NCBI GenBank assembly: GCA_965221795.1
Contig: OZ244914.1
Coordinates: 2,112,974-2,176,973 of the forward strand
Length of the DNA: 64,000 bases
Direction of reading: 5' to 3'
DNA from: Candidatus Poriferihabitaceae bacterium
GTDB lineage: Bacteria; Pseudomonadota; Gammaproteobacteria; Arenicellales; Poriferihabitantaceae
How positions within the stretch are numbered: the first letter of the stretch is position 1; each line of letters begins with the position of its first letter. Of this stretch, positions 2,498 to 17,320 are shown in pieces. The notes below the pieces were generated by a model. The model had not been told where the DNA came from. It did no database searches and was given only the letters and a program-made list of their open reading frames with translations. The position numbers were made by a program, and so were the translations under genes.

Positions 2498-3667
2498 ATG
2501 CCGGATCACAGTATCGTCTTTTCTATTTTTCTGATCTTTTCCGGTGCCGCATTTTTAGCAACAGTGACACTGTACCTGCGTCAGGCCATGCTCATTGCCT
2601 ATCTGGTTCTGGGCGCCTTGCTCGGTCCCTGGGGCCTTGGCCTAGTCACGGACGCAGATCTGATTCAGGACATTGCTCGGATTGGGATCATTTTTCTCCT
2701 GTTCCTATTGGGACTGAATCTGTCCCCGCAAAAATTGCTGCACCTGCTGCGTGAAACCATCTGGGTCACGCTGATTTCTTCGTTGGTCTTCAGTATATCG
2801 GCTGGCGGCATCGCCTGGCTGTTTGGTTTTGGCTGGATTGATACGTTGGTGATCGGAATATCAGCCGCATTTTCCAGCACCATCATCGGTCTCAAACTGC
2901 TGCCGACCACCGTATTGCATCACCGCCACGCCGGGGAGGTGATCATCAGTGTGCTGTTGTTGCAGGACCTGATCGCCATCATTGCTATGCTGGTGCTTCA
3001 AGGCATGGGCAAGGGGAATCTCCCACTAGCCGAAGTCGCCTTGCTGTTCGTAGCCCTCCCGGCGTTGGTCGTGGGAGCCTGGCTTGGCCAGAAATGGGTG
3101 CTGATTCCTCTCTTTTCCCGATTCGACCGAATTCAGGAATATGTTTTCCTATTGACTATCGGCTGGTGTCTGGCGATTGCCCAGTTGGCAGAGTCGTTGG
3201 GACTCTCCTATGAAATCGGTGCATTCATCGCTGGCGTGGCGATTGCCACATCCCCCATGGCTCTCTATATTGCAGAGAGTTTGAAATCTCTCCGGGATTT
3301 CTTTCTGGTGATGTTCTTTTTCGGAATCGGTGCCGGATTTGATCTGCAGGCCGCTGCGGGAGTGTTGGTGCCTGCAAGTCTGATTGGCGTGGGACTGTTG
3401 CTGCTGAAGCCGGTGGTTTTTCGTTTTGCCCTGGTGGGTCAGTCCGAGTCCAGTCGCCTTGCTTGGGAAACCGGTGTCCGATTGGGGCAGATGAGTGAGT
3501 TTTCCCTACTGATCGTTTTTGTGGCGGCCAGCCATGGACTGATCAGCGAAGATGCTTCGCTGCTGGTGCAGGTTGCTACTGTAATTAGTTTTGTGTTCTC
3601 GGCTTGGTATATTGTCCTGCGCTATCCGACACCCATCGCTGTGAATGAGAAGCTCCGGCGGGATTGA
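2498..3667 (+). CDS. CPA2-family cation:proton antiporter (KefC-like, no KTN domain)
   Basis: 389 aa highly hydrophobic; FSST.I.LK, LLLQDL, GAFIAG, LRDFFL.MFF, GQMSEFS motifs. Confidence 0.9.
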   Translation: MPDHSIVFSIFLIFSGAAFLATVTLYLRQAMLIAYLVLGALLGPWGLGLVTDADLIQDIARIGIIFLLFLLGLNLSPQKLLHLLRETIWVTLISSLVFSISAGGIAWLFGFGWIDTLVIGISAAFSSTIIGLKLLPTTVLHHRHAGEVIISVLLLQDLIAIIAMLVLQGMGKGNLPLAEVALLFVALPALVVGAWLGQKWVLIPLFSRFDRIQEYVFLLTIGWCLAIAQLAESLGLSYEIGAFIAGVAIATSPMALYIAESLKSLRDFFLVMFFFGIGAGFDLQAAAGVLVPASLIGVGLLLLKPVVFRFALVGQSESSRLAWETGVRLGQMSEFSLLIVFVAASHGLISEDASLLVQVATVISFVFSAWYIVLRYPTPIAVNEKLRRD

Positions 3668-4087
3668 GCTTCTTCCTCTCTTGCATGCTGGCGGGAGCTC
3701 CTGCTGTTATTCCATGACCGGCCCGGATTCGGAAACGTGGAACGGCGGATATTACAATGGCTGCAATCCGTGGCGAGATGGTTCTTTACGGCGTTCCTCT
3801 TCATGACCCCCGCTTCGACCGGGAGGTACACTGACTCGAATGCAGGGATCGGGCGAATAGTCGGCCGTTCCACGACTCCTGCCGATCACCGGGCCCAATG
3901 CCTGCACCTTAGCGGGAGAATTGCTATTGCTGCAGTGCAGCAGTCAGGTCGCAAAAATGATTCCATTCGTAGTATACTAAAAGTCCGCTACAATAAACCC
4001 ACAAGTCGAGTCCGTAGCTGGCGTGCAGAGAGCTAAACGGTTGGGATACTCGATTCATTTGATCTTCAAAATGGTTACGATCACACC

Positions 4088-5164
4088 ATGAATGCATCTT
4101 CTGATTCTTCGGCACCGCCTGTTTTCGTTACCGGTGCAACTGGACATGTGGGTGCCAATCTTGTCCATCGCCTTCTTAACGAAGGCAAAAAAGTTCGGGT
4201 CCTGCTGAGAAGGGGAAGCAACCATGCCGCAATGGAAGGCCTTGAGGTTGAGCGCGTCTATGGCGACCTTCGGGACCTGCAGTCCACCCGGACCGCCATG
4301 GAGGGTTGCCAAGGGGTCTATCACGTAGCGGCTAAGATTTCCACGATTGATGGCAATCGCGCCTATCGCCGCGAATTATATGAATGCAATGTTCTTGGTA
4401 CCCGTAATATACTTCAGGCTGCGCGGGAATGCGAAGCCGGCCGGGTAGTGGTGACGGGCTCTTTCAGCGCGGTCGGTTACGACTTGGATAACCCGTCTGT
4501 ACCAAGCGATGAAACCATGCAGTTCTTTCCTATGGAGCGCACGATGCCGTATGAACGCAGCAAGGCCTTTGTCGAGCATGAGTGCTGGCGTGCTGTTGTC
4601 AAGGGACAGGATGTGATTGTCGCTACCTGCTGTGCCGTGGTTGGAGGCTGGGATTATTTTCCCTCCCGATTAGGAAGAACCATGTGCGACTATACTGACG
4701 GCAAGCTTCGGGCCTATGTCGATGGCGGCTTCGAGTTCGTCGCTGCACGGGATATTGTGGAAGGGCATTTGCTTTGCATGGAGAAAGGACGTTCTGGCGA
4801 AAAGTACATTTTCAGTAGTGAGTATAAAACCATCTCTGAAATCCTGGATCTGTATGAAGAAGTGTCGGGGATCCCTCGTCCGGGGAAACGGATTCCGAGC
4901 CAAATAATGCTCGCATTTTCCGAGGTAGCGAGCGCCTACCTAAGTCGTTTTCATCCTACTTTTCCCCAGCGATTCACGCCCGGTGCCATTCGCCTGCTGC
5001 GATTGTGTCGTCACGCGAATACGTCCAAGGCGAGGCAGGAACTGGGTTATCAACCGACCACTATCCGAGCGGCGGTGCAGGAGGCCTATTCGTTTCATTA
5101 CCATCACCGTCATGCCATCACCAATCCACAAGCCAAACCTCCCAGCGAGGACATCGCGAAGTAA
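4088..5164 (+). CDS. NAD-dependent epimerase/dehydratase, 3beta-hydroxysteroid dehydrogenase-like (candidate SdmB)
   Basis: Extended SDR: VFVTGATGHVG, NVLGTRN, catalytic YERSK; first gene of the sterol operon. Confidence 0.85.
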   Translation: MNASSDSSAPPVFVTGATGHVGANLVHRLLNEGKKVRVLLRRGSNHAAMEGLEVERVYGDLRDLQSTRTAMEGCQGVYHVAAKISTIDGNRAYRRELYECNVLGTRNILQAARECEAGRVVVTGSFSAVGYDLDNPSVPSDETMQFFPMERTMPYERSKAFVEHECWRAVVKGQDVIVATCCAVVGGWDYFPSRLGRTMCDYTDGKLRAYVDGGFEFVAARDIVEGHLLCMEKGRSGEKYIFSSEYKTISEILDLYEEVSGIPRPGKRIPSQIMLAFSEVASAYLSRFHPTFPQRFTPGAIRLLRLCRHANTSKARQELGYQPTTIRAAVQEAYSFHYHHRHAITNPQAKPPSEDIAK

Positions 5165-5222
5165 TGTGTAAAAGTTAAGCATTAAGAGTTCTTTTCAATG
5201 CCCACCTGTCAACTATTGCCGA

Positions 5223-6332
5223 ATGAAGATGAATGTAAATTCGAGACTGGATGGCCCCCCTGTATTTGAGGAGGCCAACAACCTGCGCCAGAAAGTGCGT
5301 GCCACGGGCCTCGACCCCGATTATTGGTATGCAGTAGAAGAAGTAGGTAATATCAAGCCGGGAGGTGTCACTGAAGTCATTTTCTGGAAACACTCCATCG
5401 CACTGTATCGTTCTGCAGACGGCTCGTTTCATGCCCTCGAAAATCGTTGTGCACATCGTCAGGTCAAACTCTCTCTGGGCGATGTCGAAGGCTGTCAACT
5501 GGTGTGCCCGTACCATGGCTGGTCATATGATGAAACCGGCCGCCGGGCCGATAACCGGAAGGAGGGGGATGACGGGTCGCTGATCAAGCCTTCTATCAAA
5601 AGCTATCCGGTGCAGGTCCGTTATGGCCTGGTCTGGTTGTTTCCGGGCAACCCAGAGCGTGCGCAAGAGCGGCAAATCCCGGATATTCCTGAACTGGAAG
5701 GACGGAATCGTTGGGCCTGCGTCCCTCTCAGTTTCACCTGGTCGGCTCATCACTCAATGATTATTGACAACGTGAGCGATTTCACCCATGCTCACCTGCA
5801 CCGTCGATATCGACCCTTCGACGGCGCTACCCTTACCCATAGTGAAACCATTGGCGATAATGTCCATCTGTCCTACGATACTCAGGTTGGGCGCGGGCCA
5901 ATCTCCGGACGGTTCGTCGATCACAAGAAGCTGAACACCAATCGCATGGAGCTTTGCTACCAGTATCCTTATCAATGGTCGAATACCGATGATGCCATCA
6001 AGCATTGGCTGTTCGTGTTGCCGATCAATGAGCGGACTACCCGGGTCTTCTTCATGTTCTACTTCAAATCATTGAAGATCCCCTTCATTCCGATCAAAAT
6101 CCCCCGTTTTGCGATGACCGGGATTATGACCATATCCAACCGCCTTCTCATCGCACCCTTGCTGGATCAGGACCGATATGCCGTGGAGGCGGAGCAGGAG
6201 GGTTACGAGAAGTATTGGGATGCCCGTCCCATCGAATTCAACCCGGTCGTGAAGTCGTTCCAGGAAGTGACGGTGCGGAAATGGCAGGAATTCCTGGAGC
6301 GAGAAAACGGGGGCCGCGTTGCTGTCGACTGA
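5223..6332 (+). CDS. Rieske non-heme iron oxygenase (candidate sterol C-4 demethylase SdmA)
   Basis: Rieske ligands CAH...CPYH; mononuclear iron motif DNVSDFTHAHLH; operon context. Confidence 0.88.
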   Translation: MKMNVNSRLDGPPVFEEANNLRQKVRATGLDPDYWYAVEEVGNIKPGGVTEVIFWKHSIALYRSADGSFHALENRCAHRQVKLSLGDVEGCQLVCPYHGWSYDETGRRADNRKEGDDGSLIKPSIKSYPVQVRYGLVWLFPGNPERAQERQIPDIPELEGRNRWACVPLSFTWSAHHSMIIDNVSDFTHAHLHRRYRPFDGATLTHSETIGDNVHLSYDTQVGRGPISGRFVDHKKLNTNRMELCYQYPYQWSNTDDAIKHWLFVLPINERTTRVFFMFYFKSLKIPFIPIKIPRFAMTGIMTISNRLLIAPLLDQDRYAVEAEQEGYEKYWDARPIEFNPVVKSFQEVTVRKWQEFLERENGGRVAVD

Positions 6333-6339
6333 CCTCCAC

Positions 6340-7437
6340 ATGCCCTGGTCGTCCATGCTATCAGCCTCTGCCTTGCTGGAGGCTACTGCCATGATCGTGG
6401 CCTTTTTCGGGTTCCTGTTTGTGGGCTCAATGATCCTCCCGGGGCGTCGGATTGAGGGAGGGGAAGCAGAAGGGAAGGTAATCACCTACAAGCTCAATGG
6501 GCTCGCCTTGTTTCTGGCTACTGCAGCGTTTATGTCGCTTGTCCAGTTTTTCGGTTGGTTTTCCCTGTCCGCCTTATACACCCACTTTGGGGCACTTTTC
6601 GTAGTGGTCAATGTGGTCTCCTTTGCCCTTTCTGGCTGGCTGTATTGGAAAGGTATCCGGGACCGGGGCGCGTCGCCTGGATCCCCTGGGGTGTGGCGAG
6701 GATTTTTCTACGGTGTGGAACTCAATCCGAGTGCTTTTGGGGTGGATCTGAAGTTGTACAGTTATCGTCCCTCTCTGATCGGCCTGGCTCTGTTAAATGC
6801 TTCATTTGCGGTCGTGCAGTATGAGACCTATGGTTACCTGACCTTGGCCATGATTCTCTATCAGGCGTTTACTTTTCTGTATGTGCTTAACTATTTCCAG
6901 TTCGAGTATGGAATGATCCATACTTGGGATATTGTCAGCGAGCGCTTTGGATGGATGCTGGTCTGGGGCGATTATGTTCTCGTGCCGTTTTTCTACTGTA
7001 TTCCAGGTTGGTGGCTGGTGAATGCATCCGAATCGGTACCGCTGTCTCCGGTATCGGCCACGCTGATCATTCTTCTATTTGTGTTCGGCTTTTGGGTTTT
7101 TCGAGGCACCAATGGGCAAAAGCATCGCTTCAAGTCTGATCCGAACACCCGGATTTGGGGACGCCCGGCCCAGTCCTTGGATGGTCGTCTATTGGTTTCC
7201 GGGTTCTGGGGGATCGGCCGGCATCTTAACTACACGGGCGAAATCTGTGTCTATCTTTCCTTTGCCCTGACGACTGGATTCGCTTCCTGGATCCCGTACC
7301 TGTTACCTGCCTGGCTCGCCAGTCTGTTATGGCATCGTTCCCGGCGGGATGAACGTCGCTGTCATGCCAAATACGGGGAGTTGTGGGAGCGTTACACAAA
7401 GCGTGTTCGCTACCGGATGTTGCCTTTGATCTACTAA
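6340..7437 (+). CDS. ERG4/ERG24-family sterol reductase (probably Delta14)
   Basis: FFYGVELNP, D....FGWML.WGD...VPF.Y, NGQKHRF, LLVSGFWG..RH.NYTGE, DE.RC..KYG..W..Y...V.Y...P.IY; ATG at 6340 chosen over TTG 6319. Confidence 0.9.
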   Translation: MPWSSMLSASALLEATAMIVAFFGFLFVGSMILPGRRIEGGEAEGKVITYKLNGLALFLATAAFMSLVQFFGWFSLSALYTHFGALFVVVNVVSFALSGWLYWKGIRDRGASPGSPGVWRGFFYGVELNPSAFGVDLKLYSYRPSLIGLALLNASFAVVQYETYGYLTLAMILYQAFTFLYVLNYFQFEYGMIHTWDIVSERFGWMLVWGDYVLVPFFYCIPGWWLVNASESVPLSPVSATLIILLFVFGFWVFRGTNGQKHRFKSDPNTRIWGRPAQSLDGRLLVSGFWGIGRHLNYTGEICVYLSFALTTGFASWIPYLLPAWLASLLWHRSRRDERRCHAKYGELWERYTKRVRYRMLPLIY

Positions 7438-7449
7438 GCCGCCTGGATT

Positions 7450-8850
7450 ATGACTGCACAATCCCAAAATTCGATTGATCCTGGACCAGATGTAGTCGCC
7501 CCCCGTCTGAGCGGGGGTTGGCCGTTGGTGGGCCATTTGCCGAGTTTTCTGAAAGATCCGGTCTCACTGTTGCAGCGCGGCTGGCAGGAAAAGGGGGATT
7601 TATATCGTTTTCGACTCGGCCCACGTGATTTTGCCCTGTTTACTGGACCCGAGGCCCATGACTTCTATTTCAGGATGCCAGAAGAGGAATTGAACGCCAA
7701 GGCGGTATACCAGTTCACGGTGCCGATCTTCGGGCGTGGTGTGGCATACGATGTCGCCCCCGAACTGATGGCGGAACAGCTGGGATTCCTGTTCCCGGCA
7801 CTTCGTGATTCGTCCATGCGCCGGTTTGCCAAAATCATGTTTGCCGAGGCTTCGCGGTTTGCCGACTCTCTCGGCACTGAAGGAGAAATCGACCTGCCGT
7901 ATGCGATGAATGAACTGACTGTCCGAATTGCCAGTCATTGTCTCATTGGAGACGAGGTCCGCAATCAAGTCGATTCCGGATTTGCTGAAGCCTATCATGA
8001 ACTGCAAAATGGGATCAATACGCTGGGATTCTTCTTTCCCAAACTGCCTACTGCGGGCCATCGCTCCCGCGATCGTGCCCGGAAAAAAATTGCCGAGATC
8101 TTCGGCCAGGTGATGGCCAAACGCCGACGTTCTGGTATCAAGGGAGAAGATTTCATGCAGACCCTGATGGACGCTTGTTACCAGGACGGTCGGTCGTTGA
8201 GCGACGAGGAGATTACCGGTATTCTCGTGACTGTGTTGTTCGCGGGTCAGCATACCAGTGCGATACTCGGAACCTGGACCGCTCTGGAACTGCTGCGAGA
8301 TGCTGCGTACGTGGCCCGGGTGAGAGAGGAAGTGGAAAGTCTCTATTCTGAAACCGGCACCATGGATCTGGATGGTCTGAAGCGACAGGTTACCCTGGAG
8401 TATGCGGTCAGGGAAGGCGAACGATTACACCCCCCCTTGATTATACTGATTCGCAAGGTGCTCAGCCCCTTGCAGTATGGCAGCTATACGTTGCCGGTCG
8501 GTACCTTAGCCATGGTCTCGCCGGCCGTCTCCCACCGGTTGCCCCATATCTTTTCTGATCCGGATCGTTTTTTTCCGGATCGGTTTGCGCCACCTGCTAG
8601 CGAAGACAAAAAGCACCACTACACCCTGATCGGCTTTGGCGGTGGCAAACATCGTTGCATGGGGAAGAATTTTGCCATTATGCAGTTGAAAGTGATTCTG
8701 GCGGTGTTGTTTGAGCGCTTTGATTTTCGTCTCAATGCTGCCTTTCCCTCCCCGAACTATGGTAGTTGGGTGACTGGCCCCCGGGAGCCCTGCCGACTCC
8801 ATTATCGTCGACGCCCAAATGCGGGGGTATTCCAACCTGTATCGTCATGA
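7450..8850 (+). CDS. cyp51: Sterol 14alpha-demethylase, cytochrome P450 CYP51
   Basis: CYP51 signatures Y.FTVPIFG.GV.YD and I-helix FAGQHTS; EGERLHPP; heme motif FGGGKHRC. Confidence 0.9.
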   Translation: MTAQSQNSIDPGPDVVAPRLSGGWPLVGHLPSFLKDPVSLLQRGWQEKGDLYRFRLGPRDFALFTGPEAHDFYFRMPEEELNAKAVYQFTVPIFGRGVAYDVAPELMAEQLGFLFPALRDSSMRRFAKIMFAEASRFADSLGTEGEIDLPYAMNELTVRIASHCLIGDEVRNQVDSGFAEAYHELQNGINTLGFFFPKLPTAGHRSRDRARKKIAEIFGQVMAKRRRSGIKGEDFMQTLMDACYQDGRSLSDEEITGILVTVLFAGQHTSAILGTWTALELLRDAAYVARVREEVESLYSETGTMDLDGLKRQVTLEYAVREGERLHPPLIILIRKVLSPLQYGSYTLPVGTLAMVSPAVSHRLPHIFSDPDRFFPDRFAPPASEDKKHHYTLIGFGGGKHRCMGKNFAIMQLKVILAVLFERFDFRLNAAFPSPNYGSWVTGPREPCRLHYRRRPNAGVFQPVSS

Positions 8851-11800
8851 GTCAACGCTACGATATCGCTATTGTGGGGGCGGGTCCAGTCGGTAGTGTC
8901 TGCGCCTTGGCCCATGCACAAAAGGGTGCCCGGGTGGCTTTGCTCGAAGCCAATCCCAAGTCCGCCTTGCGGCTAGCCGGGGAATGGCTGCATCCGCCGG
9001 CCGTAAAGATATTGCGCAGCCTCGGGGTTGACCTTCCCCCATCGTGTTCACAGGCCACCGGGAAAGGGTTTGCCATCTTTCCAGAAGATAGTACCGAGCC
9101 CATTACCTTTCCTTACCCAAACGGCAGCCTAGGATTCACATGCGAACATTCTGCGCTGGTGGAAAGTCTCCGTAAGACTGTCAGCAGCAATCCAAATATT
9201 GAATTTCTTGTCGGTGCACGTGCATCCACGATTGAGGATGGGTGTATCGAGTATGCGCATGATGGAGCCAGTAGAACGATCCAGGCTGCTCGAATCGTCG
9301 GGGCCGATGGCCAAGCCTCTGTCGTTCGCCAGTCGTTGGGCCTGTCGGTCACTCCGAAGATCTGTTCGCAGACGGTGGGCGTCCTGTTGAGCCATGAGGT
9401 GCAGTTATCGCTGGAGGGGTATGGGTATGTGATACTTGGTGGCCCGGGCCCGATTCTCCTTTATCGGCTGGCAAGTGGTGTGGTCAGACTGATTGCCGAT
9501 ATTCCGCTGAATCGTACGACCCCCAAGGACCGAGTGGCTTTTTTACTGGACTCGTATACCGACCTATTGCCGGATTCCCTCCAGTCTGCGTTTGTCCAGG
9601 CGTTGCGATTACGGCAATTCCAGGTTGCGATCAATAAACTGAGGCCACATGTCACTTACGGCAGCTCCCATCGAGTCCTCATTGGCGATGCAGCCGGGCA
9701 TTATCATCCTATGACTGCGATGGGAATGACCTTCGGATTCGGTGATGCATTTTCCTTGGCCGAAACGGAACGTTTTGATGACTTTGTTGCGCAACGTTTT
9801 CGGGAGACTCACACCCCATCTTTTCTTGCCATGGGGCTCTACGAGGTCTTTGCCGACTATCGGGCCGAAGCAGTCGCGATCCGGCATGCCATCTATCAGA
9901 GGGCCCGGGCCAGTTCAGTGTTCCGGGATCGAACCATCCGCTTGCTGGCCTGTGAAGATACCTCGCCCGCCCGCATGGGGGTCGCGTTTTTCGGTACGGT
10001 GATTCGTGCGTTGATGGCCCAGGTCCCGAGGTCCCTGGACTGGCTGGCGTGGCAAAAATCCTGGCACACCCTACAGGCCATGATTACTCGCATTGGATGG
10101 CTGTTACAAAGTATGCGGCGACTGTACCGGATCAAATACCGGAGTGGGGCAATGGATGAGCAAGCCTGGAGTACGCTGTCGAGGGTCTTCCCACACTCTA
10201 TGCCATGGAAATCGGACACATCCAAACCCAATCACTCGAAGAGTAACCCGTCCCCAGATGCGAGACCGGCATTGCAATCTGCGATCCGCCAGTTGCTGGA
10301 AGTGCAGAATAAAGATGGCTCCTGGGAGGGGGAGATGGTCTGGTGTCCCATGCTGACAGCCCAGTATGTGCTGCTGCATCACATCATCGAACGGCCCCTT
10401 CAGCCTGACCGGTGCCGGCATGTGCTGCGATCCTTCGAACAGACCCGTCTCGCGGATGGCACCTGGGGCATGCATGAACACTCACCGCCTCACCTGTTCG
10501 TGACCACATTGGTGTATGTTGCGGCCCGGTTACTCGGGGTCGGGAGAGATGATCCATTGCTGGAACCAGCCCGACGTTTCCTGCATGCGGAGGGCGTAGT
10601 CAATATCCCGAGTTGGGGCAAATTCTGGCTGGCTATTCTCAATCTATACGACTGGCGTGGTGTGAATGCCATTCTTCCAGAGTTGTGGGTGCTGCCCCGT
10701 TGGTTGGCCATCCACCCCTCGAACTGGTATTGCCATACCCGGCTGATTTACATGGCGATGTCCGTGGTCTATGCGCACCGGTTTCAGGTACCGGTTACGC
10801 CGGTGGTCGAGTCGTTACGGCAAGAACTGTTTCCGGCCGGTTTCACCCGTGTTGATTTTACCCATGCCCGCAATGCGCTACGGGACGGCGATCTTTTCGC
10901 ACGTCCGGGCAAAATGTTGCGGGTTGGGTATGCGCTGGCACGAGGGTTTGAACGATATGGTGGCAAGGGCCTACGCCCCCAATGTGTGAAAGCTATCACC
11001 GAGCGTATCCATTGGGAGTTGAAAAGCAGTAGCCACACCTGTATATCCCCAGTCAGCGGCACACTGAATCTCCTCGCCTTATGGCTACAGGATCCAGACG
11101 ATGTGGATTTCCTGCAAGGGCTGGAACGGCTGGAGGGCTGGATCTGGGAGGACAGCGCACAGGGTGCCCGGGTCACCGGTGCCAGAAGTGCTTCATGGGA
11201 TACCGGATTTGCCTTGCAGGCCCTGGCGACCGTAGCGGGTTTTGATGGTGTGCGCGATGCTATGAAAAAAGGGGCTGATTTTCTCTTCCAGCAACAAATT
11301 CGCCACAGCTTTGAGGGATTCGCCCATGCATTTCGCAATGACCCCCAAGGCGGCTGGTGTTTTGCAGGAGGGTGGCATGGATGGCCAGTGACGGATTGCA
11401 CAGCGGAAGCAGTACTGGGGCTGATCAATGTGCATGGAAAAGCCGTTGATCGCTCCGTACTGAACGAAGCGATTCAATTCATGTTGCGCGGGCAAAATAG
11501 AGATGGCAGTTTTGGCAGCTATGAGGCGCGACGTTCCGCACTGGGTCTTGAGTGGCTGAATCCGGCCGAGATGTTTGGCGAATCAATGACAGAAGGATCC
11601 TACGTCGAATGCACTGCATCGTGTCTTGCCGCCTTTGCCGCTTGCAAGCGGCATTATCCCGATCTCATTCGGCAGACGGTCATGAAGTCGATTCTTCGGG
11701 CCGATGCTTGGCTGCGCCGTACTCAGCGGGCAGATGGTTCATGGCGTGGTGTATGGGGTGTGCAGTACATTTATGGTACCTTATTCGGAATTCGGGCTCT

Positions 11801-12341
11801 ATTGGCCGCAGGGGCCCACCCGAGTGATACCGCATTGCGCTTGGCTTGTCGCTGGCTATTGGACCGCCAGCACAGCGACGGAGGGTGGGGTGAGCATCAC
11901 AGCGGTTGTCTTTCCGGCCAATATGTCGACCATGACGAAAGTCAGGTGATTCAGACTGCATGGGCGCTGATCGCACTGCTGGAAGCGAAGGATTCGAGCT
12001 GGCATGCCATTTCCAAAGGAGCACAATATCTGCTGGATACTCAGAAAGCGGATGGAACTTGGCCCAAGCAAGACATGGCTGGGGTATTTTTCCGCACGGC
12101 CCTGTTGGACTATGTTCTGTATCGACAGTATTTTCCTCTGCATGCACTCGGTCTCTATGAGCAGCATCGCCAGATACGCTTGAATTTGACGAACACCGCG
12201 ATTCTGGATGATAACGTGAAACCGGCCGAAGCCGAATCTTCGTTGCCCTTGATCCCGCTTCATCCACCTTTGACTCCGAATCCGCCATCGCCTGAAGCTG
12301 CTCCCGGAACTGGTTCAGGGAATTACGCTTCTCTAGGATAA
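8847..12341 (+). CDS. Squalene epoxidase - oxidosqualene cyclase fusion (1164 aa)
   Basis: N-half: IVGAGPVG, RLAGEWLHP, LIGDAAGHYHPMTAMGMT (SE/Erg1-like). C-half: QW repeats, IPSWGKFWL, WYCHTRLIY, catalytic DCTAE, GVQYIYGT, GGWGE. ATG overlaps the cyp51 stop (ATGA at 8847-8850). Confidence 0.92.
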   Translation: MSQRYDIAIVGAGPVGSVCALAHAQKGARVALLEANPKSALRLAGEWLHPPAVKILRSLGVDLPPSCSQATGKGFAIFPEDSTEPITFPYPNGSLGFTCEHSALVESLRKTVSSNPNIEFLVGARASTIEDGCIEYAHDGASRTIQAARIVGADGQASVVRQSLGLSVTPKICSQTVGVLLSHEVQLSLEGYGYVILGGPGPILLYRLASGVVRLIADIPLNRTTPKDRVAFLLDSYTDLLPDSLQSAFVQALRLRQFQVAINKLRPHVTYGSSHRVLIGDAAGHYHPMTAMGMTFGFGDAFSLAETERFDDFVAQRFRETHTPSFLAMGLYEVFADYRAEAVAIRHAIYQRARASSVFRDRTIRLLACEDTSPARMGVAFFGTVIRALMAQVPRSLDWLAWQKSWHTLQAMITRIGWLLQSMRRLYRIKYRSGAMDEQAWSTLSRVFPHSMPWKSDTSKPNHSKSNPSPDARPALQSAIRQLLEVQNKDGSWEGEMVWCPMLTAQYVLLHHIIERPLQPDRCRHVLRSFEQTRLADGTWGMHEHSPPHLFVTTLVYVAARLLGVGRDDPLLEPARRFLHAEGVVNIPSWGKFWLAILNLYDWRGVNAILPELWVLPRWLAIHPSNWYCHTRLIYMAMSVVYAHRFQVPVTPVVESLRQELFPAGFTRVDFTHARNALRDGDLFARPGKMLRVGYALARGFERYGGKGLRPQCVKAITERIHWELKSSSHTCISPVSGTLNLLALWLQDPDDVDFLQGLERLEGWIWEDSAQGARVTGARSASWDTGFALQALATVAGFDGVRDAMKKGADFLFQQQIRHSFEGFAHAFRNDPQGGWCFAGGWHGWPVTDCTAEAVLGLINVHGKAVDRSVLNEAIQFMLRGQNRDGSFGSYEARRSALGLEWLNPAEMFGESMTEGSYVECTASCLAAFAACKRHYPDLIRQTVMKSILRADAWLRRTQRADGSWRGVWGVQYIYGTLFGIRALLAAGAHPSDTALRLACRWLLDRQHSDGGWGEHHSGCLSGQYVDHDESQVIQTAWALIALLEAKDSSWHAISKGAQYLLDTQKADGTWPKQDMAGVFFRTALLDYVLYRQYFPLHALGLYEQHRQIRLNLTNTAILDDNVKPAEAESSLPLIPLHPPLTPNPPSPEAAPGTGSGNYASLG

Positions 12342-12828
12342 CCGATCGACAAGACCACTGGAGGGATCGCATCTTCCTGATGGCAGAGTCCGACACAAAT
12401 CCCCAACGACAGCAATCGCCATCTCTCGACATCCGTTCTGAGTCGTAAACGCAATCAGTGCGAGATAGGTGAGTAATTGGTGATCGAATCCACGCGAGTG
12501 GCATAAGGCGTTCATCACAACACCTTGTCCGTTGCTCAATGGCCAGAGCGTGTCGCGCATGAAAGGGTTGTCGTGGGGCAGCGCGACACCAACGAGTACG
12601 CTATCAGACACGACGAAGGCTTCTTCGAATGGTCCGGTTGCACCAGCTGTGCATCCTCATAATCCGGTCAGAAGCATTCAGCGACATGGTCATTCCAATC
12701 AAGCGGCCACTTAGGCGATTGCAGTGAACCACATGAAGGAAGCGTCTGCGTATGTCAGGTCATCCAGACCGATCAGCACTCATACCAGGGAAGGCGTTGG
12801 CAGCCCGGAAACTGGGCCAGTCGATAGG

Positions 12829-13647
12829 CTACCGTACTCGTTTTAGCGCTGTTTGGGTAAAGTCCCTATCATCCAGATCAGTACCAAACTCGTAGTCGGA
12901 CCATTCCAGCACGGTGCTCTTTCCCGTCAGGTGATTTTCCATGGTGATTGTACTGGCCCGCCAAAAACGATCCAGGTACTTCCGATAATCCTTCACCGTC
13001 ATGGTTTTCAAATGTACTTCCCCGCGGTCGAAAAACTGAATTTGTATGGTCCGGAGCTCTTCTTGATCCAGCCAAACTAACTGACGGGTATATCCAGAGT
13101 CTTCACTCAAGGGAATACGCTCCAGGACGATACACTCGAGATCTCCGCAGGATTCCTCGCGCAGGTGTCGGTGCACAAATTTTTCGACCTCCACCGCCCC
13201 CATGTCCTCATAGGAAAATTCGCTGCCCATGAAGGAACCGGACTGGTTTGAGGAACTGATGGCCTTGACTCGCCTCAGGGCAGGAAGGTAGAGCCACTGG
13301 TCATCTGGAGAATCTTTATGGGCATGGACGAGAAAAGCAGTCCCCCTGACATCCCGTGGACGATCGAATACAAACAGGGTTCGGTCGCCGTCGTTATCGA
13401 CCTCCATGACCTTGATCCGCACTTCGCGTTTGCTTTCCTGCCCCTGCTTGTTGCGCAGAATCATATCCAGGTTTGCTGTGAAATTACTGAAACCCTTCTG
13501 GCGTTCACGGGCCTCAGTGGCAATCCGAAGCCCCAACTCCTCGACACTCTCCGCGCGACCGAGAGATGAATTGGTCATCCAAACAACAACAGCAAGGAGT
13601 GCTACAGACCAAGTCAACATTGGTCGAGGAAAACTCACACACATCAT
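12829..13647 (-). CDS. LolA-like outer-membrane lipoprotein-sorting family protein (secreted)
   Basis: Signal-peptide-like N-terminus; F..P.DVRGTAFL, DDQWLYLPALRRVK.I, SFMGSEFSYED motifs; the longer ORF in the track runs in from the IS. Confidence 0.8.
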   Translation of the reverse strand: MMCVSFPRPMLTWSVALLAVVVWMTNSSLGRAESVEELGLRIATEARERQKGFSNFTANLDMILRNKQGQESKREVRIKVMEVDNDGDRTLFVFDRPRDVRGTAFLVHAHKDSPDDQWLYLPALRRVKAISSSNQSGSFMGSEFSYEDMGAVEVEKFVHRHLREESCGDLECIVLERIPLSEDSGYTRQLVWLDQEELRTIQIQFFDRGEVHLKTMTVKDYRKYLDRFWRASTITMENHLTGKSTVLEWSDYEFGTDLDDRDFTQTALKRVR

Positions 13648-13749
13648 GGCTGTTTCTTTCTGCAGGTGTTCACAATCAAAATCAGTAAGCGAGATCAATG
13701 TCACAACTGTAGACTTTGGATATCGCCTTGCGAGTAGCATTTTATCATA

Positions 13750-15102
13750 CCCCGGGACCAGTCCGAAGTGCAACCGCGCCGCGATCCCGGAATGAGGGCG
13801 TAGCCCGAAGGGAGGGGTCGCGGCGGCGACCCAAAAATCCGCGCTGCGAGTGCTTCTTTTCGGCCCCGGATGGCAACCATCTCGACTCCAAGCGATCCTG
13901 ACCGAAGCCATTGACCAAGGCAAAGGCGAGTTCGGGACCTGAAGGCCGAGTGAAGCCGCTCCGGTGCATCACCGGAGGGCCCGGAGTGCCGGGGCGATGG
14001 GGGACCGTGGGCCGCGTCAGGGGGGAGCCAGACCACGGGCAAAGACCTCTGCCGGGGTACGAACCCCCGGGGCCTTCCGAGGCCGACGGTGGAGCCGGTC
14101 CTCCACCGCCCGCACCGGTGCCGCGGTCACCTGGCGGAAGTCGGTGCCCTTCGGGAAGTACGGGCGCACCCGGCCGTTGGTATGCTCGTTCCGGCCCCGT
14201 TCCCAGGAATGGTAGGGAGTGGCGAAGTAGAAGCCTGCGCCCAACGCCGCAGCGATCTCCCGGTGCTTTGCGAACTCCTTGCCGTGGTCCGCCGTGCCGA
14301 TGTGGACCCGGTCCCGAACCGGACCCATGCGCCGGGTGATCGCCTCGGTGCCCTGCGGCGGCCGTCTTGCCTTCGACCCACGCCAGGAACCGGAACTTCG
14401 AGCCCCGGTCCACTGCCGACACCAAGGCACCCCGGTGCCTCGCTCCCATGATCGGTTCCCGCTCCCAGTCCCCGATCCGGCACTGCTCCTCAACCACTGC
14501 CGGCCGCTCCGCAAGGTCCACCCAATCGGGAATGTGACCGCGTCCGGCAGAGCGGCCGCCGCGCCCATTCGGCTTCTGGCCCCGACGTCGCCGGCACCGG
14601 TACAGGATCCCTCCGGCCTGCCGATCCGTCCGCACCTGCGGGTAGATCCACTCCTGGCCCGCCATCCCTTCGCCCGGCAACCGAACCCAGCCCGCGATCT
14701 GCTCCGGGCTCCATCCTTCCTGCAACCGTCCTGCCGCGACCACCCAGCGCTCCGGTGTCCTCTTCCAGGGCACCGCCGAAGCCTCCTGACGACGGGCCGT
14801 CGCCTTGCCGTCGGCCTGCGGGTGCCGGTCGCCCCGCAGGCCGCGGTGGCGCGAGGTCTCCCGCGAGATCGTCCCGGGGTCCCGTCCGAGATCGCGGGCC
14901 ATCTCCGGTTTCGACCACCCCCGATGCAACCGGGCGTGAATCTGGCATCGTTCGGCATGGGTCAGGGGGTGGTAGTCTACGGGCATGGCAATTCTCCGTT
15001 CGTGATCAACCGAGATGGTTCGCCATCCTCTGGCCCACCGCAAGCTTTTCACCTCACGAGCCAGCGGCTTAGGGGGTGTTGCACTTCACACTGGAACGGG
15101 GG
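13750..15102 (-). mobile_element. IS30-family element copy 1, frameshifted transposase
   Basis: 25-bp imperfect TIRs (CCCCGGGACCAGTCCGAAGTGCAAC / CCCCCGTTCCAGTGTGAAGTGCAAC); 3-bp TSD ATA (13747-49, 15103-05); IS30 motifs YHPLT..ER..I, WSPEQIAG, GDWE, DHGKEF, PYHSWERG.NEHTNG..R.YFPKG split across frames. Confidence 0.9.
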
Positions 15103-15907
15103 ATACGATTATCAGTTCCGGATAGCACTGTAGAAGCCATGCCAATTTTGGAAGTTAGAGGGCAAGGCGGGAAATAGACCCTGCGGAGATGATAAGAGGG
15201 CGGGGCCTGATCGAGATTAGGCAAGCAGTGGTCCCAAGAGAGGCGGTGGCGGAATGGAACCGGTCGATTCGCGATCTTTTGCGTGGCTGGGTGCTAGGGT
15301 CGACCGGACCTTACAGAGCCGGAATCGCGAGGGAGATGCGGAAGCTCTCCGCTCCTGCTTTCAAGTCGAAGAACCCTGCCAATCATGTCCGGCCATCATT
15401 GTGAGGATACGGCCGCACCTGCTGGGAAATTGCGCCCCGGACACCGCTCGGCAGGCGAATCCGCTTCTTCCTCTTCCTGGATGCCATGCTTACAGGCTCA
15501 TCGGGAAATTTCATGTTGCGTTCCTCAGTTGTGCAGCGGGAGAAGCATGATGGGTGAGGCGGCACAGGTTCTTCGGATATGACTGCAGCACAATCTTGTG
15601 TTGCCGCGCCACAAGAAGTGGCCGTTGCGGTGGCGCTACGGCTCTGGCAGCCATGCGCCGTCAGGACGCCACAGGCAAGCGTCCATTCGATGCCCTGCGA
15701 GAGGTGCTCAGAGGGATGGAACCCAAGAAATACGATCTGGATTGGCTCGAGTGCCCGCACTGTCCAGCACCTATTTGGGCGTTCATAATTGATGGGTTCG
15801 GCTGACGTCTTTAACGGGGCAGACGGCTGCCGCAGGGAGCACCGCCTGTGCAAATGACTTGGCGTGACCACTCCATGAAAGTGGTTCGGTGGTAAAATCG
15901 CACTGCC

Positions 15908-17320
15908 ATGCAGACGAATGATGCCCTGACCGCGCTTCGGGACCTTCCTGGCCCCAAGGGGCTGCCGTTGGTCGGCGTATTGCACCAGATACGCTTCGAC
16001 CGGTTACATCTCCAACTAGAGGCTTGGGCAGACAGCTATGGTGCCCTGTTCCAGATTCCCATGGGGCCGTACTCCGCCGTTGTGGTCTCGGACGCCGCGG
16101 CTGTCCAGCGCATCCTTGTGCAGCGTCCGCAGGTCTTCCGACGCACGCGGCGGCTTGCATCAGTGGCACAGGAAATGCGGCTCAAGGGCGTATTCGCCAC
16201 TGAGGGCGAGGACTGGCGCCGCCAGCGCCGGGTCGTCACTGCGGCGCTCAACCGCCAGAAGCTCACCGACTTCTTCCCAAAGCTTGCTGTAACGGTCGCG
16301 CGCCTGCAGCGGCGCTGGGAAGGGGCGGCGGACCTGGGCGAGCCAGTGGATATCTGTGGGGACCTCATGCGCTTCACCGTCGACATCACCATGCAACTTG
16401 CTTTCAGTGTCGACGCCAACACGCTGGAGACATCAGGGCCGGTGATCCAGCGCCATCTCGACAAGGTTTTGCCCGTGCTGTACCGACGGAGCAATGCGCC
16501 CTTCGCTTGGTGGCGCCTCTTCCGCCTGCCTTCCGACCGGGCTCTCGACCGGGCACTTGAAGCCATTGAGCGCGAGGTGGGCGAGATGATTCGTGTCGCC
16601 AGGCAGCGCATGGCAGCAGATCCGGGCCGCGCACCCACCGACTTTCTGGAAGCCATGCTGGCAGCGGTGGAGGAGGAAGGATCAGGCTTCTGCGATGCGG
16701 AGATCTTCGCCAATGCCGGCAACTTGCTGTTGGCCGGAGAGGACACGACCGCCAACAGCATCGCGTGGGCGATGCACTATTTCATGCTCTATCCTGAAAT
16801 GTTCGAGCGCGTTCGCGGCGAGGCGGATGCGCTGCTCGCCCCGTCACCGGCACTGGAGGACCTTGAACAGGCGAATTGTCTGCCGGTCCTTGATGCCTTC
16901 TGCAGAGAGGTCATGCGGATCAAACCAGTGGTACCACTCCATGTCGCCGAGCCGGTGACAGACATCGAATTGCTGGGTTGTGCGATCCCGAAAGGCACAC
17001 CGATCTTCATGCTGCTCCGCTATATAGCGACCCGTGAGACGCATTTTGCCGGCGGTGACCGCTTTGATCCTGAGCGCTGGTTACCCGAATCGCAGCCCAG
17101 TCCGCATGATCGCCGAGTCTTCCTGCCCTTCGGCAGCGGCCCGCGCCTCTGTCCTGGCCGTGCGCTGGCGCTGCTTGAGATCCGCGCGGCGCTTACCATG
17201 CTTTGCCGCAATTTCGACCTGGAGCCGGTCATGTCCGCCAGCGAGGTCCATGAACACATGGCTTTCACCATGCTGCCCGCGGGGCTGAAGGCGCGTCTCA
17301 GGCGGCGGGTGGCATGCTGA
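15908..17320 (+). CDS. Cytochrome P450 (non-CYP51, family unassigned)
   Basis: LPGPKGLPLVG N-terminus, AGEDTT I-helix, EVMR (ExxR), PERW, FGSGPRLCPG heme motif. Confidence 0.92.
   Translation: MQTNDALTALRDLPGPKGLPLVGVLHQIRFDRLHLQLEAWADSYGALFQIPMGPYSAVVVSDAAAVQRILVQRPQVFRRTRRLASVAQEMRLKGVFATEGEDWRRQRRVVTAALNRQKLTDFFPKLAVTVARLQRRWEGAADLGEPVDICGDLMRFTVDITMQLAFSVDANTLETSGPVIQRHLDKVLPVLYRRSNAPFAWWRLFRLPSDRALDRALEAIEREVGEMIRVARQRMAADPGRAPTDFLEAMLAAVEEEGSGFCDAEIFANAGNLLLAGEDTTANSIAWAMHYFMLYPEMFERVRGEADALLAPSPALEDLEQANCLPVLDAFCREVMRIKPVVPLHVAEPVTDIELLGCAIPKGTPIFMLLRYIATRETHFAGGDRFDPERWLPESQPSPHDRRVFLPFGSGPRLCPGRALALLEIRAALTMLCRNFDLEPVMSASEVHEHMAFTMLPAGLKARLRRRVAC

What the first reader, a model, noticed from the sequence alone, without database searches (positions are those of the whole stretch)
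8847..12341. Single-chain squalene epoxidase-oxidosqualene cyclase fusion
Seen: one uninterrupted 1164-aa frame with a complete SE domain, a roughly 80-aa linker rich in Trp/Leu/Arg (possible amphipathic membrane helices followed by a Ser/Pro spacer), a full OSC domain and a roughly 50-aa Pro-rich tail. In eukaryotes and most bacteria these are separate enzymes; I believe a few bacterial fusions have been noted but cannot check that here. Inference: the fusion may channel the epoxide between the two monotopic enzymes.
Basis: partly seen in the sequence, partly recalled or inferred. Interest (0 to 1): 0.8.

Follow-up and report, generated by a model that had tools for sequence, protein, structure and literature searches.

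The report
Known fused squalene epoxidase-lanosterol cyclase
This bacterium, a relative of sponge symbionts, really does encode the first two sterol-specific enzymes as one 1164-residue protein inside a five-gene sterol operon. The same fusion was described in 2020 as "MsbE" and occurs in hundreds of related genomes, so it is genuine and conserved, still untested biochemically, and not new.

Summary
Window 8847-12341 (+) is one stop-free 1164-codon frame. It has a complete squalene epoxidase (SE) half and a complete oxidosqualene cyclase (OSC) half, both with intact catalytic motifs.

It is the last gene of a collinear operon: sdmB, sdmA, ERG24, CYP51, then the SE::OSC fusion. It holds the only SE and the only cyclase in a complete 3.64-Mb genome.

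The fusion is not an artefact. All 80 related loci fetched carry it as one intact frame, and 62 of them carry the whole five-gene cassette. Their record titles span about 10 phyla, and many bear sponge-symbiont names.

The real spacer is 25 residues, and it has that length in 35 of 37 aligned homologues. An AlphaFold2 model on a deep alignment (pLDDT 91, pTM 0.91) predicts a fixed packing of the two halves.

Val848 (human V453) predicts lanosterol as the product.

I found no report of an activity assay or a test of substrate hand-off in the searched library.

The parts
4088..5164 (+). sdmB-like NAD(P)-dependent sterol C-4 demethylation component (msbA equivalent)
   Evidence: NCBIfam NF052578 SdmB scores 333.8 bits, below its 600-bit cut-off. 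Pfam Epimerase and 3Beta_HSD also hit. The gene is collinear in 62 of 80 loci.
5223..6332 (+). sdmA-like Rieske oxygenase, 4-methylsterol monooxygenase (msbB equivalent)
   Evidence: NCBIfam NF052579 scores 394.6 bits, below its 600-bit cut-off. Pfam Rieske and VanA_C also hit.
6319..7437 (+). ERG4/ERG24-family sterol C-14 reductase (msbC equivalent)
   Evidence: Pfam ERG4_ERG24 scores 243.5 bits. It is the only member of this family in the genome.
7450..8850 (+). CYP51-like cytochrome P450 (msbD equivalent); its stop codon overlaps the start of the fusion gene (ATGA)
   Evidence: Pfam p450 scores 181 bits. The overlap is read directly from the sequence. No ferredoxin domain is fused to it.
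8847..12341 (+). SE::OSC fusion gene, 1164 codons plus stop (msbE equivalent)
8847..10187 (+). Squalene epoxidase half, residues 1-447. It carries GAGPVG (11-16), GADG (152-155) and GDAAGHYHP (280-288), plus its own amphipathic C-terminal helices.
   Evidence: Pfam SE and FAD_binding_3 hit. The motifs were located. phmmer matches human SQLE 6C6N at 4e-28. Foldseek gives TMt 0.80-0.81 to whole SQLE. The helices come from the model.
10188..10262 (+). Inter-domain spacer, residues 448-472, rich in Ser/Pro/Lys
   Evidence: It is exactly 25 residues in 35 of 37 aligned fusions, although mean column identity is only 0.58. It holds the region of low model confidence between the two halves (pLDDT 52-71).
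10263..12164 (+). Oxidosqualene cyclase half, residues 473-1106. It carries the catalytic motif V848-T-D850-C-T-A-E and five QW-type repeats.
   Evidence: phmmer matches human lanosterol synthase 1W6K at 1.9e-129, residues 470-1106. TIGR01787 scores 510.8 bits, above its 322.7 cut-off. Foldseek gives TMt 0.86-0.87 to 1W6K/1W6J. The motifs were located.
12165..12341 (+). Pro-rich C-terminal tail (residues 1107-1164) and stop codon
   Evidence: Mean column identity is 0.24 and the length varies from 0 to about 55 residues among homologues. pLDDT is below 50 from residue 1128.
12829..13923 (-). LolA_like / DUF1329 periplasmic lipid-carrier-like gene next to the operon (association only)
   Evidence: Pfam LolA_like scores 208 bits. 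A homologue lies within 8 kb of the fusion in 7 of 80 loci.

Best explanation
The gene encodes a genuine bifunctional enzyme of the MsbE type.

Inferred by homology:
- The N-terminal flavin-dependent squalene epoxidase half converts squalene, O2 and reducing equivalents into (3S)-2,3-oxidosqualene.
- The C-terminal class II cyclase half protonates the epoxide through Asp850 and cyclises it. The most likely product is lanosterol.

Shown here:
- Both halves are complete.
- SE keeps its own amphipathic C-terminal helices.
- A spacer of fixed length (25 residues) joins those helices to the first helix of the cyclase.
- AlphaFold2 predicts one defined packing of the two halves.

Inferred, not tested:
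- The fusion sits as a monotopic unit on the cytoplasmic face of the inner membrane.
- It gives 1:1 stoichiometry and short-range hand-off of the lipophilic epoxide.
- That hand-off would also limit a second epoxidation to dioxidosqualene.

The gene closes a translationally coupled five-gene cassette: sdmB, sdmA, ERG24, CYP51, SE::OSC. An unlinked squalene synthase and a sterol methyltransferase complete the pathway. Together they would give this bacterium of the Candidatus Poriferihabitaceae type de novo synthesis of demethylated, possibly C-24-alkylated sterols.

The cassette is shared among symbiont lineages of many phyla, which points to horizontal transfer.
For: Frame and domains.

Homology of each half to solved enzymes:
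- Human OSC 1W6K, E 1.9e-129 over residues 470-1106.
- Human SQLE 6C6N, E 2e-27 in the whole-protein search and 4e-28 with the SE half alone.

Motifs invariant in 37 fusions: GxGxxG, GADG, GDAxGHxHP, V848, D850-C-T-A-E.

V453 (human numbering) correlates with lanosterol in bacteria (Wei 2016, PMC4919349).

The fusion is the genome's only strong SE hit and only cyclase. The genome also holds one SQS-type gene and one gene with a Sterol_MT_C domain. The downstream sterol genes therefore depend on both halves being active.

Conservation:
- The 120 best database proteins all have both domain sets.
- All 80 loci have intact frames.
- 62 of 80 carry the full collinear cassette.
- Spacer length is fixed.

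Structure: model m77c1c57cf474 has pLDDT 91.2 and pTM 0.91. One well-placed domain alone could give only about 0.55. Each half matches its solved counterpart.

Transfer:
- Phyla are nested in a shallow gene tree.
- Only 5 of 13 genomes of the same genus carry the gene.
- No flanking genes are shared with any of the 80 loci.

Literature: MsbE in an identical msbA-E cassette (PMC7074536); "fused SMO/OSC homologs" (PMC10070321); steroid clusters that show signs of horizontal transfer and purifying selection (PMC9531527).
Against: - I found no report of an enzymatic assay of any member of this fusion family in the searched library.
- No electron donor for the SE half is identified.
- TIGR03463 (2,3-oxidosqualene cyclase) scores 729.6 bits, below its curated cut-off of 851.
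- The residue aligned with human SQLE Tyr195 is an invariant Phe75.
- The positions equivalent to human T381 and C449 are Ala779 and His844. Only V453 matches the lanosterol pattern.
- The SE half diverges faster than the OSC half: mean 56% against 71% identity to the window protein.
- One relative (L087) has SE and OSC as separate adjacent genes in different frames. The fused state is therefore not obligatory, or that copy is damaged.
- The predicted domain packing could not be inspected residue by residue. No coordinates or PAE are returned.
- Read support at the junction was not checked.
Confidence: 0.85

Rival explanations
1. The single frame is an assembly or sequencing artefact, such as a lost stop codon or a frameshift between two adjacent genes.
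For: Read coverage could not be checked. One relative, L087, does show separate SE and OSC genes in different frames across the spacer.
Against: The same uninterrupted architecture is found in all 80 independently assembled loci and in the 120 best protein clusters. These include many closed chromosomes. The genome here is a single 3.64-Mb contig. Spacer length is conserved.
Confidence: 0.02
2. Only one half is catalytic. The other is a degenerate scaffold or a membrane anchor.
For: The SE half evolves faster than the OSC half (56% against 71%). It has Phe where human SQLE has Tyr195. No activity data exist.
Against: All FAD-binding and cyclase motifs are invariant across 37 fusions. The genome has no other squalene epoxidase and no other cyclase. 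It nevertheless keeps CYP51, ERG24, SdmAB and an SMT, all of which need a cyclised sterol. Both halves fold like their solved counterparts.
Confidence: 0.06
3. The fusion confers no kinetic channelling. It persists because it fixes 1:1 expression and makes a compact cassette easier to transfer and keep intact (a "Rosetta-stone" fusion of neighbouring genes).
For: The cassette lies in a different genomic neighbourhood in every locus, and phyla are nested in a shallow gene tree. The pathway shows other fusion permutations: SE::SQS in L085 and in P0191 and others, and SQS::cyclase in P0195. This suggests that fusion of neighbouring genes is frequent. A split relative exists.
Against: The spacer is exactly 25 residues in 35 of 37 homologues although its sequence varies. 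The model predicts one defined inter-domain packing (pTM 0.91). Both point to a geometric constraint that a merely tethered pair would not need.
Confidence: 0.35
4. The cyclase half makes something other than lanosterol, for example cycloartenol, parkeol or an arborane-type triterpenol.
For: Two of the three classical specificity positions deviate from the lanosterol pattern: Ala779 for T381 and His844 for C/Q449. His is the cycloartenol-type residue.
Against: In the bacteria tested, the V/I residue at position 453 alone tracked the product (Wei 2016). Val848 is invariant in the family. Mohanty 2020 made the same call for MsbE. The adjacent CYP51, ERG24 and SdmAB genes fit a lanosterol-derived route.
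Confidence: 0.15

Closest known systems
MsbE of the msb locus, gamma-proteobacterial symbiont of the sponge Melophlus sarasinorum (Mohanty et al. 2020, Mar Drugs, PMC7074536)
   Same: It has an N-terminal squalene epoxidase and a C-terminal sterol cyclase in one protein. A Val residue is used to call it a lanosterol cyclase. The gene order is identical: msbA (NAD(P) oxidoreductase), msbB (Rieske), msbC (sterol reductase), msbD (CYP51), msbE. The host is a gamma-proteobacterial sponge symbiont.
   Different: It comes from a different genome, and identity to MsbE itself was not measured because its sequence was not retrieved. The window protein carries a longer Pro-rich tail. MsbE was described in silico only.
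"Fused SMO/OSC homologs" in sponge-metagenome sterol clusters (Brown et al. 2023, Nat Commun, PMC10070321)
   Same: In the Aplysina aerophoba scaffold, the ERG1 and ERG7 queries hit the same gene. It lies next to CYP51, ERG24, sdmA and sdmB (Supplementary Data 1).
   Different: Those clusters also carry SMT genes inside the cluster. Here the SMT is about 1.3 Mb away. The paper trimmed the SE part away and did not study the fusion.
Clusters of steroid genes (ERG24-CYP51-LSS) of Ircinia sponge microbiomes (Kelly et al. 2022, Microbiome, PMC9531527)
   Same: The core gene order is the same. The clusters occur in 10 phyla, their gene trees disagree with the species tree, and they are under purifying selection. 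The LSS alignment of 3765 nucleotides fits a fused gene.
   Different: The last gene is called LSS/ERG7 in the passages read, and they do not mention the epoxidase half.
Separate squalene monooxygenase and oxidosqualene cyclase genes of other sterol-producing bacteria and of eukaryotes (human SQLE 6C6N, human LSS 1W6K)
   Same: The two enzyme folds and catalytic motifs are the same. The SE C-terminal helices are retained.
   Different: Those are two polypeptides. The eukaryotic SE has an N-terminal regulatory or anchor region that is absent here. The eukaryotic OSC has about 80 extra N-terminal residues (chain residue 68 aligns with query residue 470).
SE::SQS fusions seen here (L085 1372-4425 in a Myxococcota MAG; P0191, P0203, P0216, P0224, P0247, P0254, P0264)
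   Same: SE is the N-terminal partner, fused to a neighbouring enzyme of the same pathway. The proteins lie in sterol clusters with sdmA/sdmB.
   Different: The partner is squalene synthase, the step before SE, not the cyclase. The OSC of that Myxococcota cluster is stand-alone, and it is the sister of the sponge-type fusion clade in the OSC tree.

Membership tests
Squalene epoxidase / squalene monooxygenase (Pfam PF08491; EC 1.14.14.17) | Pfam SE domain above its gathering score | tested here: met
   81.6 bits against a cut-off of 20.1, residues 150-391.
Squalene epoxidase / squalene monooxygenase (Pfam PF08491; EC 1.14.14.17) | FAD-binding fingerprints of group A flavin monooxygenases (GxGxxG, DG, GD motifs) | tested here: met
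   GAGPVG 11-16, GADG 152-155 and GDAAGHYHP 280-288 are present. They are invariant in 37 fusions.
Squalene epoxidase / squalene monooxygenase (Pfam PF08491; EC 1.14.14.17) | Overall fold of SQLE, including the C-terminal helical membrane-associated part | tested here: met
   Foldseek gives TMt 0.80-0.81 over about 480 columns to 6C6N, 6C6R and 6C6P, which are 449-451 residues long.
Squalene epoxidase / squalene monooxygenase (Pfam PF08491; EC 1.14.14.17) | Residue equivalent to human Tyr195 in the substrate/inhibitor pocket | tested here: not met
   It aligns with Phe75, which is invariant in the family. Whether Tyr is required for catalysis in bacterial SEs is not known to me, so I do not treat this as disqualifying.
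Squalene epoxidase / squalene monooxygenase (Pfam PF08491; EC 1.14.14.17) | Epoxidation of squalene with O2 and a reductase partner | not testable with these tools
   This needs an enzyme assay. No partner reductase was identified.
Oxidosqualene cyclase / lanosterol synthase (TIGR01787, TIGR03463; EC 5.4.99.7) | Both cyclase domains and the family-level NCBIfam model above cut-off | tested here: met
   SQHop_cyclase_N scores 174 bits and SQHop_cyclase_C 198 bits. TIGR01787 scores 510.8 bits against a cut-off of 322.7.
Oxidosqualene cyclase / lanosterol synthase (TIGR01787, TIGR03463; EC 5.4.99.7) | The specific 2,3-oxidosqualene cyclase model TIGR03463 above its curated cut-off | tested here: not met
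   It scores 729.6 bits against a cut-off of 851. It is still by far the best-scoring model, ahead of hopene cyclase TIGR01507 at 279 bits.
Oxidosqualene cyclase / lanosterol synthase (TIGR01787, TIGR03463; EC 5.4.99.7) | Catalytic acid in a DCTAE motif (OSC type) rather than the DxDDTA motif of squalene-hopene cyclases | tested here: met
   D850-C-T-A-E aligns with human D455-C-T-A-E. It is invariant in 37 fusions.
Oxidosqualene cyclase / lanosterol synthase (TIGR01787, TIGR03463; EC 5.4.99.7) | Val at human position 453 (lanosterol) rather than Ile (cycloartenol) | tested here: met
   Val848 is present. The rule comes from Wei 2016. Positions 381 and 449 are Ala and His, so they do not follow the eukaryotic lanosterol pattern.
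MsbE-type bifunctional SE/OSC of sponge-symbiont sterol cassettes | One polypeptide with SE N-terminal and OSC C-terminal | tested here: met
   The protein is collinear with 37 homologues.
MsbE-type bifunctional SE/OSC of sponge-symbiont sterol cassettes | Cassette order: oxidoreductase (sdmB), Rieske (sdmA), sterol reductase, CYP51, fusion | tested here: met
   The window genes at 4088-12341 follow this order. 62 of 80 loci are identical in order. The description is in PMC7074536.
MsbE-type bifunctional SE/OSC of sponge-symbiont sterol cassettes | Host is a sponge-associated bacterium | tested here: inconclusive
   The source of the window is not given. G005, a genome of the same genus, has the coordinates of L002 (OZ241969.1, a Candidatus Poriferihabitaceae MAG). 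The nearest gene-tree neighbours are Poriferihabitaceae and Arenicellales MAGs.

The most novel reading that the evidence does not exclude
The two halves form a rigid, co-evolved unit. The fixed 25-residue tether and a defined SE-OSC interface place the epoxidase product exit next to the membrane-facing entrance of the cyclase. Oxidosqualene would then be handed over without joining the bulk membrane pool. This self-contained "squalene-to-lanosterol" module, with SE acting as a general N-terminal fusion partner (SE::OSC here, SE::SQS in Myxococcota relatives), is what made sterol synthesis portable across about ten phyla of sponge symbionts.
Probability: 0.25. Interest if true: 0.55.

Novelty: already known. 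Interest (0 to 1): 0.25.

Why it matters
Bacterial sterol synthesis in sponge holobionts bears on how sterane biomarkers, such as 24-isopropylcholestane, are read as evidence of early animals. It also bears on how symbionts persist inside a phagocytic host.

The fusion itself is already catalogued. It remains the only natural single-chain squalene-to-protosterol enzyme type that turned up in the searches run here, and I found no report of an assay or a solved structure in the searched library.

It is a ready-made test case for substrate hand-off between two monotopic membrane enzymes. It is also a natural template for the SE-OSC fusions that metabolic engineers build for triterpenoid production.

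This window adds another intact member, in a closed genome that holds a single SQS, SE, OSC, ERG24 and SMT.

Tried and rejected
2. The first AlphaFold2 run used 37 close homologues and gave a poor model (pLDDT 68, pTM 0.56). I did not use it for domain packing. A 95-row alignment with stand-alone SEs and OSCs gave pLDDT 91 and pTM 0.91.
3. The promoter and terminator scan of 3600-13000 found fewer sites than shuffled sequence, and no + strand promoter-like site. It says nothing about operon boundaries.
4. I asked whether the neighbouring LolA_like gene is the known sterol carrier BstC. It is not: BstC is a TRAP T-component-type protein (PMC10942540), and no NCBIfam model hit the window gene.
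5. I tried to decide whether all SE::OSC fusions descend from one event.
   - The OSC tree puts 20 fusions and 4 stand-alone cyclases in one clade with 99% support.
   - The SE tree has an unsupported backbone with the divergent fusions scattered.
   - The question is unresolved. Only the sponge-type clade is clearly of single origin, with 100% support in both trees.
6. My motif regex missed L073 and L079 as single ORFs. tblastn showed both are intact in one frame.
7. A true transmembrane helix in the linker is rejected. No 19-residue window reaches a Kyte-Doolittle mean of 1.5.
8. Literature searches for an experimental study of the fusion, or for a description of SE::SQS fusions, found none in the library.
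Full report
**Observation**

Window 8847-12341 on the + strand is one uninterrupted frame of 1164 codons. The only longer reading starts at a TTG at 8766. The ATG at 8847 overlaps the stop codon of the upstream P450 gene as ATGA. It also gives the same short N-terminus as the closest homologues.

Pfam finds these domains:
- FAD_binding_3, residues 5-305.
- SE, residues 150-391.
- SQHop_cyclase_N, residues 477-769.
- SQHop_cyclase_C, residues 781-1105.

Among NCBIfam models, the best are the oxidosqualene cyclase model TIGR03463 (729.6 bits, below its 851 cut-off) and the squalene/oxidosqualene cyclase model TIGR01787 (510.8 bits, above its 322.7 cut-off).

Against solved structures, residues 470-1106 match human lanosterol synthase 1W6K (E 1.9e-129). 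Residues 6-301 match human squalene epoxidase 6C6N (E 2e-27 in the whole-protein search, 4e-28 with the SE half alone).

**Context**

The gene is the last of five genes on the same strand:

| Position | Gene |
|---|---|
| 4088-5164 | sdmB-like |
| 5223-6332 | sdmA-like Rieske oxygenase |
| 6319-7437 | ERG4/ERG24 sterol reductase |
| 7450-8850 | CYP51-like P450 |
| 8847-12341 | SE::OSC fusion |

The genome is one contig of 3.64 Mb, estimated 98% complete. In it:
- The fusion holds the only cyclase.
- The fusion holds the only strong SE match.
- There is one squalene-synthase-type gene about 1 Mb away.
- There is one gene with a Sterol_MT_C domain.
- There is one ERG4_ERG24 gene, the one in the operon.
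- There is no EBP.

The downstream sterol-tailoring genes only make sense if both halves of the fusion work.

**Is the fusion real and conserved?**

- The 120 best database proteins (clusters at 90% identity) are all 1113-1174 residues long, are 62-73% identical to the window protein, and carry both domain sets.
- A scan of one genome per prokaryotic species found 392 stretches that encode a relative. All 80 loci fetched are full-length.
- All 80 carry the two halves in one frame.
- 62 of 80 have the complete collinear five-gene cassette. Nine have a rearranged or truncated version. Nine have the fusion without the other four genes beside it.

An assembly artefact is therefore excluded for practical purposes.

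**Who carries it**

The record titles name these groups:
- Candidatus Poriferihabitans and Poriferihabitaceae, Arenicellales, Candidatus Porisulfidus, Thiotrichales, Chromatiales.
- Rhodospirillales, Paracoccaceae.
- Nitrospirales, Nitrospinaceae, Candidatus Binatia, Thermodesulfobacteriota.
- Bryobacterales, Vicinamibacterales, Acidimicrobiales, Opitutales, Longimicrobiales.

Many of these are sponge-symbiont names.

In a tree of the 79 fusion proteins, these phyla are nested inside one shallow tree. Most phyla form one clade each.

The gene is patchy among close relatives:
- 5 of 13 genomes of the window's own genus carry it, at only 71% identity.
- 1 of 12 other genera of the family carries it, and that copy has an in-frame TGA.

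None of the window's flanking genes recurs beside the cassette in any locus. The one exception is a LolA_like gene.

This is the pattern of a horizontally moving cassette. G005, a genome of the same genus, has the coordinates of L002 (OZ241969.1, a Candidatus Poriferihabitaceae MAG). The window's organism therefore belongs to that gamma-proteobacterial family.

**Anatomy**

The first part belongs to SE. The model shows helices at 374-392, 399-431 and 438-451. Two results assign them to SE:
- The SE half of the model superposes on the entire human SQLE construct (TMt 0.80-0.81 over about 480 columns).
- Stand-alone bacterial SEs of 444-477 residues end with the same helices (P0149, P0186, P0214).

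The helices are amphipathic. No window reaches transmembrane hydrophobicity.

The second part is the true spacer, residues 448-472. It is rich in Ser/Pro/Lys and includes the stretch of lowest model confidence between the two halves. It is exactly 25 residues long in 35 of 37 aligned fusions, although its column identity is only 0.58, against 0.85 for the cyclase half.

The Pro-rich tail is variable in length and sequence (identity 0.24) and is predicted to be disordered.

**Catalytic residues**

These motifs are invariant in the 37 fusions:
- GAGPVG (11-16).
- GADG (152-155).
- GDAAGHYHP (280-288).
- The cyclase motif V848-T-D850-C-T-A-E.

D850 aligns with the catalytic Asp455 of human OSC, and V848 aligns with V453. 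In bacteria, V453 tracked lanosterol production and I453 tracked cycloartenol (Wei 2016). I therefore predict lanosterol.

Three deviations should be noted:
- Ala779 stands at the position of human T381.
- His844 stands at the position of human C449.
- Phe75 stands at the position of human SQLE Tyr195.

**Structure**

A first model from 37 close homologues was poor. A second model used 95 rows that included stand-alone SEs and OSCs. It reached mean pLDDT 91.2 and pTM 0.91.

One correctly placed domain could contribute at most about 0.55 of a 1164-residue chain. This pTM therefore means that the relative position of the two halves is predicted with confidence.

No PDB chain covers both halves (best TMq 0.54). 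I could not inspect the interface, because no coordinates are returned.

Together with the fixed spacer length, this fits a rigid two-enzyme unit and short-range hand-off of oxidosqualene. It does not prove either one.

**Wider family**

Beyond the sponge-type clade there are fusion proteins at 35-46% identity (P0122-P0127, P0133, P0136). One of them sits in a differently ordered cluster: sdmB, P450, sdmA, SE::OSC, EBP, ERG24 (L084).

In the OSC tree, 20 fusions and 4 stand-alone cyclases form one clade with 99% support. The sister of the sponge-type clade is the stand-alone cyclase of a Myxococcota MAG. In that MAG's cluster, SE is fused to squalene synthase instead (L085).

The SE tree does not resolve how many fusion events there were.

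One close relative has SE and OSC as adjacent genes in different frames, with the break inside the spacer (L087). This is either a natural split or a frameshift.

**What is already known**

- Mohanty et al. 2020 (PMC7074536) described the msb locus of a gamma-proteobacterial symbiont of Melophlus sarasinorum. [quoted passage not shown] That is this cassette.
- Brown et al. 2023 (PMC10070321) trimmed "fused SMO/OSC homologs" for their OSC tree. Their supplementary table shows ERG1 and ERG7 hitting one gene.
- Kelly et al. 2022 (PMC9531527) reported ERG24-CYP51-LSS clusters in 115 of 537 Ircinia MAGs from 10 phyla. The clusters are under purifying selection and show signs of horizontal transfer.

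None of the passages read reports an enzymatic test of the fusion. Further searches found no such test.

After I reached this reading, a look-up of this scan's earlier notes showed that agents working on other genomes had come to the same verdict. That is not independent evidence.

**Verdict**

The fusion is genuine, intact, under constraint and very probably bifunctional, making lanosterol.

The "linker" is mostly SE itself, and channelling remains an untested inference that the fixed spacer and the confident domain packing make somewhat more likely.

As a kind of thing it is already described, so interest is low to moderate. The open value lies in biochemistry and structure, not in discovery.

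Noticed in passing
L085 1372-4425 (Myxococcota MAG GCA_039186435.1); also proteins P0191, P0203, P0216, P0224, P0247, P0254, P0264: These are a different pathway fusion: squalene epoxidase at the N-terminus joined to a squalene synthase (SQS_PSY) domain, about 1017-1200 aa in all. In the longer forms a middle stretch separates the two domains; its family was not tested. In L085 the fusion lies in a sterol cluster with sdmB, sdmA, HMG-CoA reductase, a stand-alone OSC and an SMT. I found no description of it in the searched library.
   Followed up: partly
protein P0195 (1022 aa): A third permutation: an N-terminal SQS_PSY domain fused to a complete squalene/oxidosqualene cyclase. P0207 (1063 aa) has a cyclase with a 410-residue N-terminal extension that matches no Pfam family.
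   Followed up: partly
window 12829-13923 (-): A LolA_like / DUF1329 gene lies 490 bp downstream of the operon on the opposite strand. Homologues at 52-71% identity lie within 8 kb of the fusion in 7 of 80 loci. It is not the known sterol carrier BstC. It is a candidate periplasmic sterol carrier.
   Followed up: partly
window 13745-17320: This stretch has 64% G+C, against about 55% around it. It holds the remnant of a transposase-like gene with only an HTH_38 domain (13745-15052, -). It also holds a second cytochrome P450 (15908-17320, +; 268 bits) that is unrelated to CYP51. A 53%-identical partial match lies downstream of the cassette in the Nitrospinaceae locus L045.
   Followed up: partly
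L084 7227-10505 and neighbours: A divergent SE::OSC fusion (P0123, 45% identity) lies in a differently ordered cluster: sdmB, P450, sdmA, SE::OSC, EBP-family gene, ERG24. The fusion therefore also occurs in a sterol cluster of different gene order, far outside the close 62-73%-identity family.
   Followed up: no
L087 6001-9440: A close relative of the sponge-type clade has SE (477 aa) and OSC (666 aa) as separate adjacent genes. The frame changes inside the spacer. Its sdmB is also split in two, and no ERG24 lies in the cluster. This is either a natural fission or frameshifts in a long-read assembly.
   Followed up: partly
G022:C1:254123-257491 (a genome of the same family): The only copy of the fusion found in the other 12 genera of the family carries one in-frame TGA. 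It may be a pseudogene.
   Followed up: no
window 8847-10187 versus 10263-12164, compared with L001-L080: The SE half is much less conserved than the OSC half and the other cassette proteins. Mean identity to the window is 56%, against 71% for OSC and 70-77% for the other cassette proteins.
   Followed up: no
G000:C1:801379-801549 (-) and G000:C1:1099206-1100078 (-): The sterol methyltransferase gene lies about 1.3 Mb from the operon and the squalene synthase-type gene about 1.0 Mb from it. In the published sponge-metagenome clusters the SMTs lie inside the cluster.
   Followed up: no
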